50,164 nt of DNA from a virus (taxonomy: Duplodnaviria; Heunggongvirae; Uroviricota; Caudoviricetes), in the IMG/VR virus record IMGVR_UViG_3300014204_006419; one strand, 5' to 3'. Made by a program: the position numbers and the translations under genes. The notes under the pieces are model-generated. The model made no database searches and was not told where the DNA came from. It saw only the letters and a program-made list of their open reading frames with translations. Shown in pieces: positions 44,188-46,206 of the stretch (position 1 is its first letter; each line of letters begins with the position of its first letter).

Positions 44188-44385
44188 TTACCTCTTCTTG
44201 CTGCGTTTCTTTTTATCTTCTCGCTTTAGTTTCTCTTCGATAGCTGAACGAATAAATTGGCTGCGCTCTCCAGAATTCCTAGTTGCTTTGTTTATCTTGT
44301 CTAGAATTACTTCAGTAAGACCTATTGATACTGGGATGATTCGCTCATTCAGCGTTAGGGCTTTTCTTCCTACCATATATACCAC
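44188..44385 (-). CDS. Ribbon-helix-helix transcriptional regulator
   Basis: VSIGLTEVILDKIN...RSQFIRSAIEEKL. Confidence 0.7.
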   Translation of the reverse strand: MVYMVGRKALTLNERIIPVSIGLTEVILDKINKATRNSGERSQFIRSAIEEKLKREDKKKRSKKR

Positions 44386-45907
44386 TCCAGTCTTTTGCCT
44401 TGATTGTATTTAATGCTGTCTTTGAATCCTTCTCGAATAGGCGGATTAAATCGAAGATTCTCTCGCTGAATCCTGCGATTAATGCAGTGCGTGGTTCGTC
44501 ACTTGGAACTTGGAGTGTTCCGTATCCTGCCAGGTCAATTGAGTACAGCAAAACATTTCTGTTCACTCTGTTCTTGTATTGATTGAAGGCTAGTGCAAAG
44601 TTATCACTGTAACACGCGATTTGTCCGTAGCACTGCATGTCTGAGAGCAAGATGATTCTGTCAAAGTAAACGTTTCCGTCTACTGCGTACTCTTGCAATG
44701 CTTTCCCTGCGAAAGTCGAACAACCTACATCGGTTTCAAGCAATTTCTTTGTATTGCATATTACTCCGTTGCGTGAGCTTAGGCGTACTTCTTTCCAGTA
44801 ATCACCGAAGCAAACTACTGCAGATTCAGAGCATTGCCTTGAAACAATTGAGCCAAGTACGCATCCTATTTGCTTCAGGCTCACCGAACTCATCTTGCTT
44901 AATGGACTGTTCATACTGTTAGACATATCCACTAGTACAAGTGTCTTTCCAGGCATCATTGGTACGTTCTCTACTGACGCGTCCATGGCAAGCTCGATAG
45001 CATCCAAGACCCTGTTTACTGCAGTCTTGTTTGCACCTTCTATCTCTACGTTTTCTAATTCATTGTACGCAGAATAGAATCTGAATGGAAGCTGCTTGCT
45101 TTTCTTCACTGCTTCTGCGTCTGCTATCTTTGCAGCTATTGGGGTCATGTTCACTCCCTTTTGGAGCATATTCCTGAGATTTCTCAATATTGCCATGTAC
45201 CCCATTTTTTCTGAGATTCTCTCCCAGTTCTCCTTGGTGCTTCCCTTGCTGATTTCAACTTCCCATGTTTCTGGGGTCTTGAGCTTGCGCTCTAGAATTC
45301 TCTTGAACAGCTTTGCTTCTTCCTTTGTCTCTGGCTTTGGGTGCACTAGGCTTACTACATCCTTTAGCTTTACGGTTCCGTCCTTGTCATACTTTGCAAA
45401 TTGGTACTCGTCAAAGTTGTGTAATGTGTCTGCTAGCCCTTTCTTGAGCGAGGCAGGCATAGAACCTTTCTTTGACCTGTCTCCCAGATTTCCGATTCTA
45501 GTTTGCAAGTATGCGACTGCTTCTGCAAATTCGTCAGCTCTCTTGATTATCGCAGGAGTGTACTTTCTCACGAACTCCTTTCCCTTTGGATGCAATGATG
45601 CTTCTACGAGTAGAACAATAGGTACACTTCTTAGATACAATTCGTTCCTTGCGTATGCTGCCATTTGCAGAACTAGTTCGGGATTGGAATCAAGAACTTT
45701 CTTTGTGTCCTCTAGCAAGAAATTTGCCTCTTGGTTTTCGTCTTCTTTGTAAAATTTTGGCTCGTTCACCATACTCGTAGAAACCCTACTATAAAATCTC
45801 AACTCGTCTTCTAGTGAGTATGCTAATCCGCCTTCATAATTAGTTGTCTTGTCTGGATGATTTTCCAGTCTTGACTCTGATGATGCTCTTCCACTGAATT
45901 TACCCAT
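44345..45907 (-). CDS. Ro60/Rsr-like TROVE plus vWA domain RNA-binding protein
   Basis: TTNYEGGLAY, YARNELYLRSVP, KYDK, MAILRNLRN, LPFRFYSAY and LVDMSNSM; start revised to ATG 45907 after GAGGTG. Confidence 0.9.
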   Translation of the reverse strand: MGKFSGRASSESRLENHPDKTTNYEGGLAYSLEDELRFYSRVSTSMVNEPKFYKEDENQEANFLLEDTKKVLDSNPELVLQMAAYARNELYLRSVPIVLLVEASLHPKGKEFVRKYTPAIIKRADEFAEAVAYLQTRIGNLGDRSKKGSMPASLKKGLADTLHNFDEYQFAKYDKDGTVKLKDVVSLVHPKPETKEEAKLFKRILERKLKTPETWEVEISKGSTKENWERISEKMGYMAILRNLRNMLQKGVNMTPIAAKIADAEAVKKSKQLPFRFYSAYNELENVEIEGANKTAVNRVLDAIELAMDASVENVPMMPGKTLVLVDMSNSMNSPLSKMSSVSLKQIGCVLGSIVSRQCSESAVVCFGDYWKEVRLSSRNGVICNTKKLLETDVGCSTFAGKALQEYAVDGNVYFDRIILLSDMQCYGQIACYSDNFALAFNQYKNRVNRNVLLYSIDLAGYGTLQVPSDEPRTALIAGFSERIFDLIRLFEKDSKTALNTIKAKDWSGIYGRKKSPNAE

Positions 45908-45941
45908 TTTAACACCTCGCCCTTTTGGGGCTGGAAATATT

Positions 45942-46080
45942 GTCAATCGCAGAGGAAAACGATTTGAGAGATATGTGTGCAGCCGTTACACCACAGCCCC
46001 TTGGTGGAGCCGTTTGGAGTCGAACCAAATCCACATCGTCCAGAACGAAGTATCTCAAATCTACACTTCTGCGACATGAC
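45942..46080 (-). ncRNA. YrlA-like Y RNA with permuted tRNA-like domain
   Basis: Ends pair (GTCATGTCGCAG / CTGCGATTGAC; GATTTGAGA / TCTCAAATC). Inside: T-arm TTTGG-TTCGACT-CCAAA, closed acceptor-like stem CGGCTCC-ACCAA-GGGGCTG, D-arm GTGT-AACGGCT-GCAC. Adjacent to the Ro60 gene. Confidence 0.8.
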
Positions 46081-46084
46081 TATA

Positions 46085-46168
46085 ATGCCAAGAAAAACGA
46101 GAACGGAGACGCCCTTTCGAGCATTCGGTTCCAAAGTATCGAAGTAACCGTTCTCTACACATTGGCAT
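46085..46168 (-). ncRNA. Second Y-RNA-like stem-loop RNA
   Basis: ATGCCAA/TTGGCAT and GAGAACGG/CCGTTCTC pairing; shares GTGTAGA-N7-TACTTCG with the downstream RNA; TTTATATA box at about 46189-46196. Confidence 0.7.
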
Positions 46169-46206
46169 GTTAATTAATTGTTAAGTAATATATAAACCTA
46201 TGCTTT

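What the first reader, a model, noticed from the sequence alone, without database searches (positions are those of the whole stretch)
44345..46200. Ro60/TROVE gene co-transcribed with two Y-RNA-like ncRNAs, one a permuted tRNA mimic
Seen: TATA box at about 46190, then an ~84-nt hairpin RNA and a ~139-nt RNA. Both have GTGTAGA-N7-TACTTCG with the variable N7 paired to the 3' strand (covariation). The second holds a T-arm, a loop-closed acceptor stem and a D-arm in permuted order. Established: bacterial Ro60 (Rsr) genes lie next to Y RNAs, and YrlA mimics tRNA in this way. Inference: a complete Ro60 RNP in an apparently archaeal virus-like element is unusual and may act as a tRNA decoy or RNA-salvage module.
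Basis: partly seen in the sequence, partly recalled or inferred. Interest (0 to 1): 0.8.

Follow-up and report, generated by a model that had tools for sequence, protein, structure and literature searches.

The report
Archaeal-virus Ro60 with two Y RNAs
A large virus-like element of an uncultured archaeon carries the RNA-quality-control protein Ro60 preceded by its two partner RNAs, one shaped like a back-to-front tRNA. This pairing is well known in bacteria and phages and is only modestly new here.

Summary
The gene at window 44345-45907 (minus strand) is a full-length Ro60 (TROVE plus Ro60-type vWA domains). A TATA box (46189-46196) sits upstream of an 84-nt RNA (46085-46168) and a 130-nt RNA (45946-46075).

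I built a covariance model from 34 Ro60-adjacent RNAs from other DNA. It hits the 50-kb window exactly twice:
- the long RNA over its full length (74.6 bits, E 9e-19);
- the short RNA through the shared "handle" only (44.2 bits, E 2e-10).

The long RNA is a YrlA-type tRNA mimic with V arm, T arm, closed acceptor hairpin and D arm. The short RNA is YrlB-like.

Evidence from the same contig makes an archaeal host likely:
- a tRNA with a 12-nt intron at position 37/38;
- an archaeal-type AdoMet synthetase;
- an STT3/AglB-like enzyme;
- TATA-type promoters.

Ro60 genes are already on record in archaeal viruses and Borgs, and this scan has noted Ro60/Y-RNA modules on other DNA many times. This is therefore a new member of a known kind.

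One unusual detail is the acceptor hairpin, which reads G1-C72, G2-C71, G3:U70, A73 and an encoded CCA. That is the identity set of tRNA-Ala and tmRNA.

Transcription, Ro60 binding and function are not shown.

The parts
46189..46196 (-). TATA box (TTTATATA). It starts 28 nt before the first base of the RNA1 stem and 36 nt before GTGTAGA.
   Evidence: A TATA-like box sits at the same offset (-36 to -41 from GTGTAGA) in relatives L002, L207 (twice), L223 and L226. That is 5 of 18 RNAs in the group with Ro60 at 42% identity or more, against 1 of 108 control positions and 0 of 48 IMG/VR RNAs. No sigma-70-like site lies on this strand in front of the RNAs.
46085..46168 (-). RNA1: an 84-nt short Y RNA (YrlB-like). 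It has a 7-bp end stem, an internal loop (UGUGUA / GUUUUUC), an 8-bp inner stem and a small apical domain, with no tRNA-like module.
   Evidence: Model R1 gives 44.2 bits, E 2.3e-10, at 46082-46171, with the tRNA-like part deleted. MFE -28.1 kcal/mol, z -3.2.
45946..46075 (-). RNA2: a 130-nt YrlA-like Y RNA. It carries the same handle as RNA1, then V arm, T arm, closed acceptor hairpin and D arm.
   Evidence: Model R1 gives 74.6 bits, E 9e-19, over all 139 model positions at 45944-46077. MFE -47.1 kcal/mol, z -3.5.
46013..46029 (-). T arm of RNA2 (UUUGG-UUCGACU-CCAAA)
   Evidence: Rfam tmRNA_permuted aligns to this arm plus the acceptor hairpin below its threshold (20.2 bits, E 0.033).
45994..46012 (-). 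Acceptor-like hairpin of RNA2: CGGCUCC-ACCAA-GGGGCUG. In tRNA numbering this gives G1-C72, G2-C71, G3:U70 and A73, with CCA encoded in the loop.
   Evidence: Read. A 7-bp hairpin followed directly by NCCA occurs in 8 of 78 YrlA-like RNAs collected, where about 1.2 are expected. It also occurs in L286.
45977..45991 (-). D arm of RNA2 (GUGU-AACGGCU-GCAC), preceded by U8 and G9
   Evidence: The same D-arm type is present in relatives L206 and L286.
45913..45918 (-). GAGGTG ribosome-binding-like site, 5 nt before the Ro60 start codon
   Evidence: The same motif precedes the start codon in L002.
44345..45907 (-). Ro60 (Rsr-like) gene of 520 aa: TROVE ring plus Ro60-type vWA domain with a DxSxS motif (D327, S329, S331)
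12349..13137 (-). RlaP-family nucleotidyltransferase. This is context: an RNA-repair gene elsewhere in the element.
   Evidence: Pfam PF10127, 7.3e-39. RlaP also sits beside the TROVE gene in HGTV-1 and in Gordonia phage Neville.
18337..19200 (-). RNA ligase (context), followed by an HNH endonuclease gene at 19202-19633
   Evidence: Pfam PF09414, 1.3e-13, and PHROG RNA ligase. An RNA ligase lies two genes after the TROVE gene in the contigs that carry homologue P0004.
47238..47669 (-). HD_4 phosphohydrolase (context), five genes upstream of the RNAs
   Evidence: Pfam PF13328, 3.7e-15

Best explanation
This is a virus-borne Ro60-Y RNA module of the bacterial and phage Rsr/YrlA/YrlB kind, carried by a roughly 115-kb virus-like or plasmid-like element of an uncultured archaeon.

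Most likely mechanism:
- One archaeal-type promoter drives a precursor that holds RNA1, RNA2 and the Ro60 mRNA. The two RNAs are cut out of it.
- Each RNA binds Ro60 through the shared handle: the end stem, the (A/U)GUGUA // GUUUUYC internal loop and the inner stem.
- The tRNA-shaped head of RNA2 recruits a tRNA-recognising enzyme or substrate to the Ro60 ring.
- The particle then works in RNA surveillance and repair during infection, together with the element's RNA ligases, RlaP nucleotidyltransferase and HD phosphohydrolase. The probable purpose is to cope with tRNA or rRNA damage.

Shown here: the identity of the protein, family membership and conserved structure of both RNAs, their position and strand, and the promoter-like box.

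Inferred: transcription, processing, Ro60 binding, the recruited partner and the biological role.
For: Protein:
- Pfam gives TROVE 3.2e-38 and vWA_Ro60 1.7e-07.
- The protein aligns over residues 20-494 to a solved TROVE protein, E 1.7e-28.
- 2905 homologues were found.

RNAs:
- Model R1 was built from 34 foreign Ro60-adjacent RNAs. 21 of its 25 pairs show compensatory changes.
- R1 hits only these two sites in the window, at E 9e-19 and 2.3e-10.
- R1 finds 57 RNAs in 30 related TROVE loci.
- R1 also finds RNAs directly upstream of annotated Ro-like genes in the cultured phages BRock and Neville.
- The 14-base motif scan of IMG/VR returned 119 stretches or more. 23 of them lie just upstream of a TROVE gene on the same strand.

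Precedent: in M. smegmatis, YrlA and YrlB lie upstream of rsr and are processed from one precursor. YrlA is a tRNA mimic (PMC4201824; bioRxiv 10.1101/312249).

Repair context:
- In the window: RlaP, an RNA ligase and an HD domain protein.
- On the same contig: a T4 Rnl1-type ligase and a six-tRNA array.
- The same pairing recurs: TROVE-HNH-RlaP with RtcB nearby in HGTV-1, and RlaP upstream of the Ro-like gene in Neville.

Archaeal host:
- One tRNA carries a 12-nt intron at position 37/38.
- The contig holds a PF01941 AdoMet synthetase and an STT3/AglB-like enzyme.
- TATA boxes precede gene blocks.
- The nearest cultured-virus Ro60 is that of haloarchaeal HGTV-1.
- The nearest named homologue is in an Aenigmatarchaeota MAG, and that contig also carries a YrlA-like RNA.
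Against: - There is no direct evidence of transcription, processing or binding.
- No Rfam family for Y RNA or YrlA reached E 10 on this stretch. However, Rfam at its gathering thresholds also reported no Y RNA or YrlA family in 12 related loci, ten of which carry canonical-looking YrlA-like RNAs.
- The published 5' motif GNCGAAN0-1G is matched only approximately: RNA2 GCAGAAG, RNA1 GCCAAUG.
- The repair genes are scattered over tens of kb rather than forming an operon with Ro60, so a functional link is only suggestive.
- The inner-stem pairs of alignment A2 were partly pre-selected by my own pairing filter. The other four helices were not.
Confidence: 0.78

Rival explanations
1. RNA2 acts mainly as a free tRNA decoy, independent of Ro60. 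It would soak up a host factor that recognises the tRNA elbow or acceptor end, such as a defence nuclease or a modification or processing enzyme.
For: RNA2 has a complete tRNA-like core with a mature-looking ACCA at the acceptor end. The element also invests in its own tRNAs and RNA ligases, which suggests that tRNA is under attack during infection.
Against: RNA2 has no anticodon loop, so it is a poor decoy for anticodon nucleases. It keeps the same handle as RNA1 and as hundreds of RNAs tied to TROVE genes, which argues that Ro60 binding is central. The CCA is closed in a loop and is not a free end unless the hairpin is cleaved.
Confidence: 0.12
2. The acceptor hairpin of RNA2 is opened by RNase P and/or RNase Z. 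This would give a two-piece Y RNA with a free CCA end that alanyl-tRNA synthetase can charge, comparable to two-piece tmRNA.
For: - The hairpin has a 7-bp stem in exact tRNA register, with G1-C72, G2-C71, G3:U70, A73 and CCA.
- Rfam's permuted-tmRNA model aligns to exactly this part.
- M. smegmatis YrlA, which has a 7-bp stem, is cut by RNase P and receives CCA (PMC4201824).
- NCCA directly after a 7-bp stem is enriched among YrlA-like RNAs (8 of 78 against about 1.2 expected). It recurs in relatives L286 and L223.
- The element's real tRNA genes do not encode CCA.
Against: - G3:U70 itself is not enriched (7 of 78).
- Only one other RNA collected (in L045) combines G3:U70 with ACCA.
- The closest relative (L206) has a short hairpin with a UUCG loop instead.
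- A targeted scan of IMG/VR for this acceptor type found only ordinary tRNA arrays.
Confidence: 0.08
3. The two structures are not released as separate RNAs. They stay in the 5' leader of the Ro60 mRNA as cis-acting sites through which Ro60 controls its own synthesis.
For: They lie between the only promoter-like box and the start codon, with gaps of 9 and 38 nt and no clear terminator.
Against: In several relatives the same RNAs lie downstream of the TROVE gene (L227, L228, L233, L210, L222) or on the opposite strand (L223, L221). That does not fit a leader role. In bacteria they are released and accumulate (PMC4201824).
Confidence: 0.07
4. The element is a bacteriophage, and the archaeal signals are misleading.
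For: All named genomes with the closest cellular Ro60 homologues are bacterial, at 42% identity or less. Most nearby protein clusters are labelled only Uroviricota.
Against: - A tRNA on the contig has a 12-nt intron at 37/38.
- The contig carries an archaeal-type AdoMet synthetase and an STT3/AglB-like enzyme.
- TATA boxes sit about 27 nt before RNA and leader starts.
- The best cultured-virus match is an archaeal virus.
Confidence: 0.1
5. The stretch encodes the 63-aa protein of the frame 45943-46134.
For: An open frame with a TTG start exists.
Against: - The frame starts inside RNA1 and excludes RNA1's conserved motif.
- The two motif copies lie 94 nt apart, so they fall in different frames.
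- Conservation follows base pairing, with compensatory changes.
- Open frames over the equivalent stretch vary from 27 aa upward, are interrupted in L207, and elsewhere run on into the TROVE frame.
Confidence: 0.02

Closest known systems
Bacterial Rsr (Ro60) with YrlA and YrlB: Salmonella Typhimurium rsr-yrlBA-rtcBA and Mycobacterium smegmatis (Chen et al. 2014, PMC4201824; Wang et al. 2018, bioRxiv 10.1101/312249)
   Same: - A TROVE+vWA protein with one tRNA-like and one short partner RNA on the same strand, right next to the gene.
- The RNA ends pair into a long stem with a conserved 5' strand.
- The arm order is V, T, closed acceptor hairpin, D.
- In M. smegmatis, as here, the RNAs lie upstream of the gene.
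- There is a link to RNA ligases.
   Different: - An archaeal-type TATA promoter replaces the bacterial sigma-54/RtcR control.
- The host is probably an archaeon.
- The ligases are ATP-dependent types (PF09414, PF09511), scattered in the element rather than an adjacent RtcB.
- The published 5' motif is matched only approximately.
M. smegmatis YrlA, which has a 7-bp acceptor stem, is cleaved by RNase P and then receives CCA (PMC4201824)
   Same: A 7-bp acceptor-like stem in exact tRNA register next to the T arm.
   Different: Here ACCA is already encoded in the loop, and the stem carries the alanine identity set (G3:U70, A73). Cleavage has not been tested.
Phage Ro-like proteins with YrlA-like RNAs, e.g. 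Streptomyces phage BRock and Gordonia phage Neville (GenBank annotation 'Ro-like RNA binding protein')
   Same: My model R1 hits directly upstream of their Ro-like genes (86 and 66 bits). Neville also carries an RlaP gene next to it, and tRNA genes lie nearby.
   Different: Their hosts are bacteria. Ro60 identity to the window's protein is only 26-28%. I saw no TATA-type promoter spacing in the IMG/VR phage-like group (0 of 48).
Halogranum tailed virus 1 (HGTV-1, NC_021328), gene 129 'RNA-binding protein, TROVE domain'
   Same: It is an archaeal tailed virus and the best cultured-virus match of the window's Ro60 (33.8% identity, E 2e-62). Its cluster holds TROVE, HNH and RlaP, with RtcB and tRNA genes nearby.
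   Different: No full YrlA-like RNA was found by R1 within 3 kb on either side of the gene. There is only a short hairpin with the UACUUC motif behind a TATA-like box, read by eye, and a 22.7-bit partial match inside an annotated intron-containing tRNA.
Two-piece (circularly permuted) tmRNA, Rfam RF04321
   Same: The T arm, acceptor 3' strand ending CUCCACCA and 5' strand GGGG align to it.
   Different: The score of 20.2 bits is far below the gathering score of 47. There is no tag reading frame and there are no pseudoknots. The RNA carries the Ro60 handle instead.

Membership tests
Ro60 / Rsr (TROVE family) | TROVE domain | tested here: met
   Pfam PF05731, E 3.2e-38, 132.5 bits against a cut-off of 23
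Ro60 / Rsr (TROVE family) | C-terminal Ro60-type vWA domain with a metal-site motif DxSxS | tested here: met
   Pfam PF25045, E 1.7e-07, 31.7 bits against a cut-off of 27.7. D327, S329 and S331 are invariant in an 18-sequence alignment.
Ro60 / Rsr (TROVE family) | Full-length similarity to a Ro60 or TROVE protein of solved structure | tested here: met
   Residues 20-494 align to 9l5y/9kop, E 1.7e-28. There is a weaker match to RO60 9nen, E 2.4e-05. The Atlas model (pTM 0.70) is nearest to TROVE clusters.
Ro60 / Rsr (TROVE family) | Binds Y RNA and misfolded RNA | not testable with these tools
   Needs biochemistry.
YrlA-type Y RNA | Encoded within 4 kb of the Ro60 gene on the same strand (criterion of Chen et al. 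2014) | tested here: met
   RNA2 ends 38 nt before the start codon and RNA1 lies 9 nt before RNA2. All are on the minus strand.
YrlA-type Y RNA | The 5' and 3' ends pair into a long stem that holds the presumed Ro60 site | tested here: met
   There is a 7-bp end stem plus an 8-9-bp inner stem in both RNAs. Both helices covary across 34 homologues.
YrlA-type Y RNA | Conserved 5' motif GNCGAAN0-1G | tested here: inconclusive
   Read by eye at the matching place, just 5' of UGUAGA:
- RNA2 has GCAGAAG (6 of 7);
- RNA1 has GCCAAUG (5 of 7);
- the closest relative L002 has GCCGAAG (7 of 7).
I could not see the published alignment.
YrlA-type Y RNA | tRNA-like domain in the order V, T arm, closed acceptor stem-loop, D arm, with tRNA-invariant bases | tested here: met
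   R1 matches over its full length at 74.6 bits. The T loop is UUCGACU, U8 is present, and the D loop is AACGGCU with GG.
YrlA-type Y RNA | Conserved YUAY at the start of the V region | tested here: met
   UUAC in RNA1 and AUAC in RNA2, where the first base is A. UACUUC is invariant in alignment A2.
YrlA-type Y RNA | Match to an Rfam model for Y RNA or YrlA | tested here: not met
   No such family reached E 10 on 45850-46260. The library at its gathering thresholds also reported none in 12 related loci. I therefore treat this as a limit of the model, not of the RNA.
YrlA-type Y RNA | Bound by Ro60; carries tRNA-type modifications | not testable with these tools
   Needs immunoprecipitation and modification mapping.
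Circularly permuted tRNA gene | After processing, an anticodon stem-loop and a bulge-helix-bulge junction at the termini | tested here: not met
   The 5 nt after A26 (CAUAU) have no partner before the V region. The place of the anticodon stem is taken by the 9-bp handle stem, with no loop. ARAGORN finds no tRNA in the window.
tmRNA (two-piece) | Score above Rfam threshold; tag reading frame | tested here: not met
   20.2 bits against a gathering score of 47. ARAGORN finds no tmRNA.

The most novel reading that the evidence does not exclude
The tRNA-like Y RNA is a pro-form. Host RNase P or RNase Z opens its acceptor hairpin to expose the encoded ACCA on a stem with the full alanine identity set (G1-C72, G2-C71, G3:U70, A73). 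The result would be a two-piece RNA, bound to Ro60 and chargeable with alanine. That would be a link between Ro60 particles and aminoacylation or ribosome-rescue chemistry not seen so far.
Probability: 0.07. Interest if true: 0.8.

Novelty: new member of a known kind. Interest (0 to 1): 0.38.

Why it matters
Ro60 and its Y RNAs are studied in animals (as an autoantigen) and in a few bacteria. In the papers I searched, only TROVE genes have been reported for archaeal viruses and Borgs, not their RNA partners.

This locus and its relatives show that the same handle-plus-tRNA-mimic RNAs travel with Ro60 in elements driven by archaeal-type promoters. The relatives include a contig binned to Aenigmatarchaeota and a likely short version in the cultured virus HGTV-1. 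The particle is therefore shared across host domains through viruses.

The finding also gives a concrete small test object for how the tRNA-like head is used: a 130-nt RNA with an alanine-type, CCA-containing acceptor hairpin.

It does not open a new kind of system.

Tried and rejected
- **Rfam.** Nothing reached gathering thresholds in the window. In E-value mode there were only sub-threshold tmRNA_permuted and tRNA matches.
- **ARAGORN.** No tRNA or tmRNA in the window.
- **Whole genome.** None is held for this window.
- **blastn of the locus against phage records.** No match.
- **Expression.** No RNA holder is listed for the 2-kb stretch. Reads were laid as contigs only. One run, labelled cDNA but guessed, holds a single identical 151-nt contig covering 46009-46158 and nothing else of the stretch laid. 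DNA runs from landfill and groundwater hold the locus. This cannot show transcription.
- **Alanine-type acceptor as a recurrent subtype.** The IMG/VR scan gave two hits, both tight arrays of ordinary tRNAs. The element's own six tRNAs include no tRNA-Ala that could be the source.
- **Permuted tRNA gene and tmRNA readings.** Rejected; see Membership tests.
- **The 63-aa frame.** Rejected.
- **One contig look-up** failed because the gene call differs from my ORF.
- **The review by Sim et al. 2020** and the supplement of Chen et al. 2014 were not available.
- **Not attempted.** I did not build a Ro60 tree, fold the protein myself or predict a complex. None of these would change the verdict.
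Full report
**What is there**

All genes around the finding lie on the minus strand. The frame 44345-45907 encodes a 520-aa protein (P0001).
- Pfam gives a TROVE domain (E 3.2e-38) and a Ro60-type vWA domain (E 1.7e-07).
- Residues 20-494 align to a solved TROVE protein (9l5y, E 1.7e-28) and more weakly to RO60 itself.
- The metal-site residues D327, S329 and S331 are invariant among its 17 closest homologues.

It is a full-length Ro60.

Upstream, read on the minus strand:
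- TTTATATA at 46196-46189;
- RNA1 at 46168-46085;
- a 9-nt gap;
- RNA2 at 46075-45946;
- 38 nt containing GAGGTG;
- the start codon.

**The two RNAs**

Both RNAs share one architecture. A 7-bp stem formed by the two ends is followed by an internal loop. The 5' side of the loop reads (A/U)GUGUA and the 3' side reads GUUUU(U/C)C. An 8-9-bp inner stem follows, and then UACUUCG.
- The inner stems differ in sequence between the two RNAs but pair perfectly in both (GAGAACGG/CCGUUCUC versus GAUUUGAGA/UCUCAAAUC).
- The 21-nt pattern occurs only at these two places in the window.
- Both RNAs fold better than shuffled controls (z -3.2 and -3.5).
- RNA1 has a small apical domain.
- RNA2 carries a V hairpin, a T arm (UUUGG-UUCGACU-CCAAA), a closed 7-bp acceptor hairpin, U8-G9 and a D arm (GUGU-AACGGCU-GCAC). 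This is a tRNA opened at the anticodon and closed at the acceptor end.

**Is it more than chance, and what family is it?**

Rfam gave nothing useful. At its gathering thresholds it also reported no Y RNA or YrlA family in 12 related loci, ten of which hold canonical-looking YrlA-like RNAs. I therefore built my own test.
- A scan of IMG/VR for the 14 specified bases returned 119 stretches or more. 23 of them sit directly upstream of a TROVE gene on the same strand.
- Scans with an alignment of the window's Ro60 and its 17 closest homologues gave 160 more TROVE loci from genomes and metagenomes. In 74 of the 179 loci with enough upstream sequence, the motif (one mismatch allowed per half) lies within 1 kb upstream, often in 2-5 copies.
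- I aligned 34 long RNAs from these loci, leaving the window out. RNAalifold returned the end stem, inner stem, T arm, acceptor hairpin and D arm. 21 of the 25 pairs show compensatory changes. One caveat applies: I had picked these RNAs with a filter that demands inner-stem pairing, so that helix is biased. The other four are not.
- The covariance model R1 built from this alignment finds exactly two matches in the 50-kb window, both strands searched. RNA2 matches over the whole model (74.6 bits, E 9e-19). RNA1 matches through the handle, with the tRNA-like part deleted (44.2 bits, E 2.3e-10).
- R1 finds 57 RNAs in the 30 closest loci.
- R1 also hits directly upstream of annotated 'Ro-like RNA binding protein' genes in the cultured phages BRock (86 bits) and Neville (66 bits).

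This ties the family to the YrlA/YrlB RNAs that Chen et al. described next to Ro60 in 254 bacteria and 22 phages (PMC4201824). Wang et al. later showed by crystallography that YrlA is a tRNA mimic (bioRxiv 10.1101/312249). The published 5' motif GNCGAAN0-1G appears to map to the end of the outer stem plus the first G of GUGUAGA. It is exact in the closest relative L002 (GCCGAAG) and approximate here (GCAGAAG, GCCAAUG).

**Promoter and co-transcription**

The only promoter-like element is the TATA box. It starts 28 nt before the RNA1 stem.
- A TATA-like box lies at the same offset before five RNAs of the closest homologue group (L002, L207 twice, L223, L226). That is 5 of 18, against 1 of 108 control positions. 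None occurs among 48 RNAs from the IMG/VR loci.
- In the window, seven of the eight minus-strand TTTAWATA matches lie in gaps before gene blocks.
- No sigma-70-like site precedes the RNAs.

One transcript that is processed, as in M. smegmatis (PMC4201824), is therefore the simplest reading. It is inferred, not shown.

**Host**

The contig is a 114,686-bp metagenome assembly from a landfill sample. The locus is also seen in groundwater. Walking along the contig showed:
- an STT3/AglB-like oligosaccharyltransferase (three concordant sub-threshold Pfam hits and PDB STT3 matches down to 1.2e-10);
- an archaeal-type AdoMet synthetase, PF01941;
- a six-tRNA array.

One of the six tRNAs is called 'Stop' by ARAGORN. 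It reads as tRNA-Asn(GUU) with a 12-nt insert exactly between positions 37 and 38, the canonical place of archaeal introns.

Two protein comparisons point the same way:
- Among cultured viruses, the best match of the Ro60 is the haloarchaeal virus HGTV-1 (33.8% identity, E 2e-62).
- The closest named homologue (49% identity) is in a 'Candidatus Aenigmatarchaeota' MAG. Its contig has a YrlA-like RNA right before the gene (70.9 bits).

All named cellular genomes with homologues are bacterial, but at 42% identity or less. I put the odds of an archaeal host at about 85-90%.

**What it probably does**

In bacteria, the Y RNA tethers Ro60 to an effector and gates its cavity. The rsr-yrlBA genes sit in an RNA-repair operon with RtcB (PMC4201824; bioRxiv 10.1101/312249; PMC7790460).

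This element carries a dispersed repair kit:
- RlaP nucleotidyltransferase (PF10127, 7.3e-39), whose family adds nucleotides to damaged RNA 3' ends (bioRxiv 10.64898/2025.12.29.696909);
- a PF09414 RNA ligase next to an HNH gene;
- an HD_4 phosphohydrolase;
- outside the window, a T4 Rnl1-type ligase and MazG.

The association recurs elsewhere:
- TROVE-HNH-RlaP, with RtcB 4 kb away, in HGTV-1;
- RlaP upstream of the Ro-like gene in Neville;
- an RNA ligase two genes after TROVE in the contigs carrying P0004;
- jumbo phages in general (PMC7824862).

The best-supported reading is an RNA surveillance and repair particle used during infection. Nothing beyond gene content supports the specific role.

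**The unusual detail**

In tRNA numbering the acceptor hairpin is C66-C72 / A73-C-C-A / A / G1-G7. This gives G1-C72, G2-C71, G3:U70 and G4-C69. From my own knowledge, that is the alanine identity set, which tmRNA shares, and it explains the sub-threshold tmRNA_permuted match.
- Among 78 YrlA-like RNAs with a 7-bp hairpin in exact register, eight have NCCA directly after the stem, where about 1.2 are expected. They include L223. L286 shows the same.
- The element's true tRNA genes lack encoded CCA. The loop CCA therefore looks selected rather than inherited.
- G3:U70 is not enriched (7 of 78). Only L045 shares the full set.
- The nearest relative, L206, has a short UUCG-capped hairpin.
- A targeted IMG/VR scan found no further cases.

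The idea of a cleavable, chargeable Y RNA has a partial precedent: RNase P cleavage and CCA addition in M. smegmatis YrlA (PMC4201824). It stays a low-probability reading.

**Novelty**

TROVE genes in archaeal viruses and Borgs are on record. Phage and bacterial YrlA are well described. This scan has noted Ro60/Y-RNA modules on other DNA very often, including one archaeal virus. I did not find a description of the partner RNAs in archaeal elements in the papers searched. The verdict is a new member of a known kind, with a minor variant feature.

Noticed in passing
L002:3520-3840 (closest relative, Ro60 54% identical): About nine 36-nt units of the form TGCGAGCCA-N10-GAAAACC-N10 lie directly upstream of the TATA box and Y RNA. 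They follow a 336-aa protein with a faint IS110/Transposase_20 hit. This looks like the TIGR-Tas array that another agent described at 38-40 kb of this window. In L002 it abuts the Ro60 module.
   Followed up: no
window 12349-13137 (-), 18337-19200 (-), 19202-19633 (-), 47238-47669 (-), 15156-15827 (-): These are scattered RNA and nucleotide-metabolism genes: RlaP nucleotidyltransferase, a PF09414 RNA ligase with an adjacent HNH endonuclease, an HD_4 phosphohydrolase and a PNP_UDP_1 phosphorylase.
   Followed up: partly
L296:208-1332 and L298:7251-8408 (same contig, outside the window): The contig holds a second RNA ligase of the T4 Rnl1 type (PF09511) and an archaeal-type AdoMet synthetase (PF01941). 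A MazG gene is also nearby.
   Followed up: no
L298:2614-2700 (-), same contig: ARAGORN calls this an 87-nt 'tRNA-Stop (tta)'. It reads as tRNA-Asn(GUU) with a 12-nt insert between positions 37 and 38. None of the six tRNA genes in the array encodes CCA.
   Followed up: partly
L291:3080-3146 (-) and L291:2941-3072 (-) (HGTV-1, NC_021328): An unannotated short hairpin follows a TATA-like box. It has end stem GTCGGAC/GCCGAC, inner stem GAGAACGC/GCGTTCTC and the motif ATACTTCA. Next to it, the annotated 'tRNA-Asp + intron' contains GUUACUUCG plus a T arm and gives a 22.7-bit partial match to my Y RNA model. These may be HGTV-1's Y-like RNAs, 2.8 kb from its TROVE gene.
   Followed up: partly
L292:1785-1916 and L292:2008-2159 (Gordonia phage Neville): YrlA-like RNAs (37 and 66 bits) overlap three annotated 'hypothetical protein' genes of 43-50 codons (genes 88-90). 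These are therefore probably not protein genes.
   Followed up: no
L215:47-2072, L226:55-1335, L239:447-2069: In several relatives the Y RNAs and the TROVE gene follow directly on arrays of 6-12 tRNA genes. Some of these are over-long calls (93-98 nt) that may hold introns.
   Followed up: no
L211, L215, L239, about 100 nt upstream of the TROVE gene: The GC-rich relatives share a palindrome-like AT-rich box (…AGTATGAATACTCATACTAGTATGAG…) just before the last Y RNA. It could be a promoter or an operator.
   Followed up: no
window 46009-46158: A wastewater run labelled 'RNA-Seq cDNA' (the kind is guessed) holds one identical 151-nt contig. It spans the RNA1-RNA2 junction and nothing else of the 501-nt stretch laid.
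   Followed up: partly
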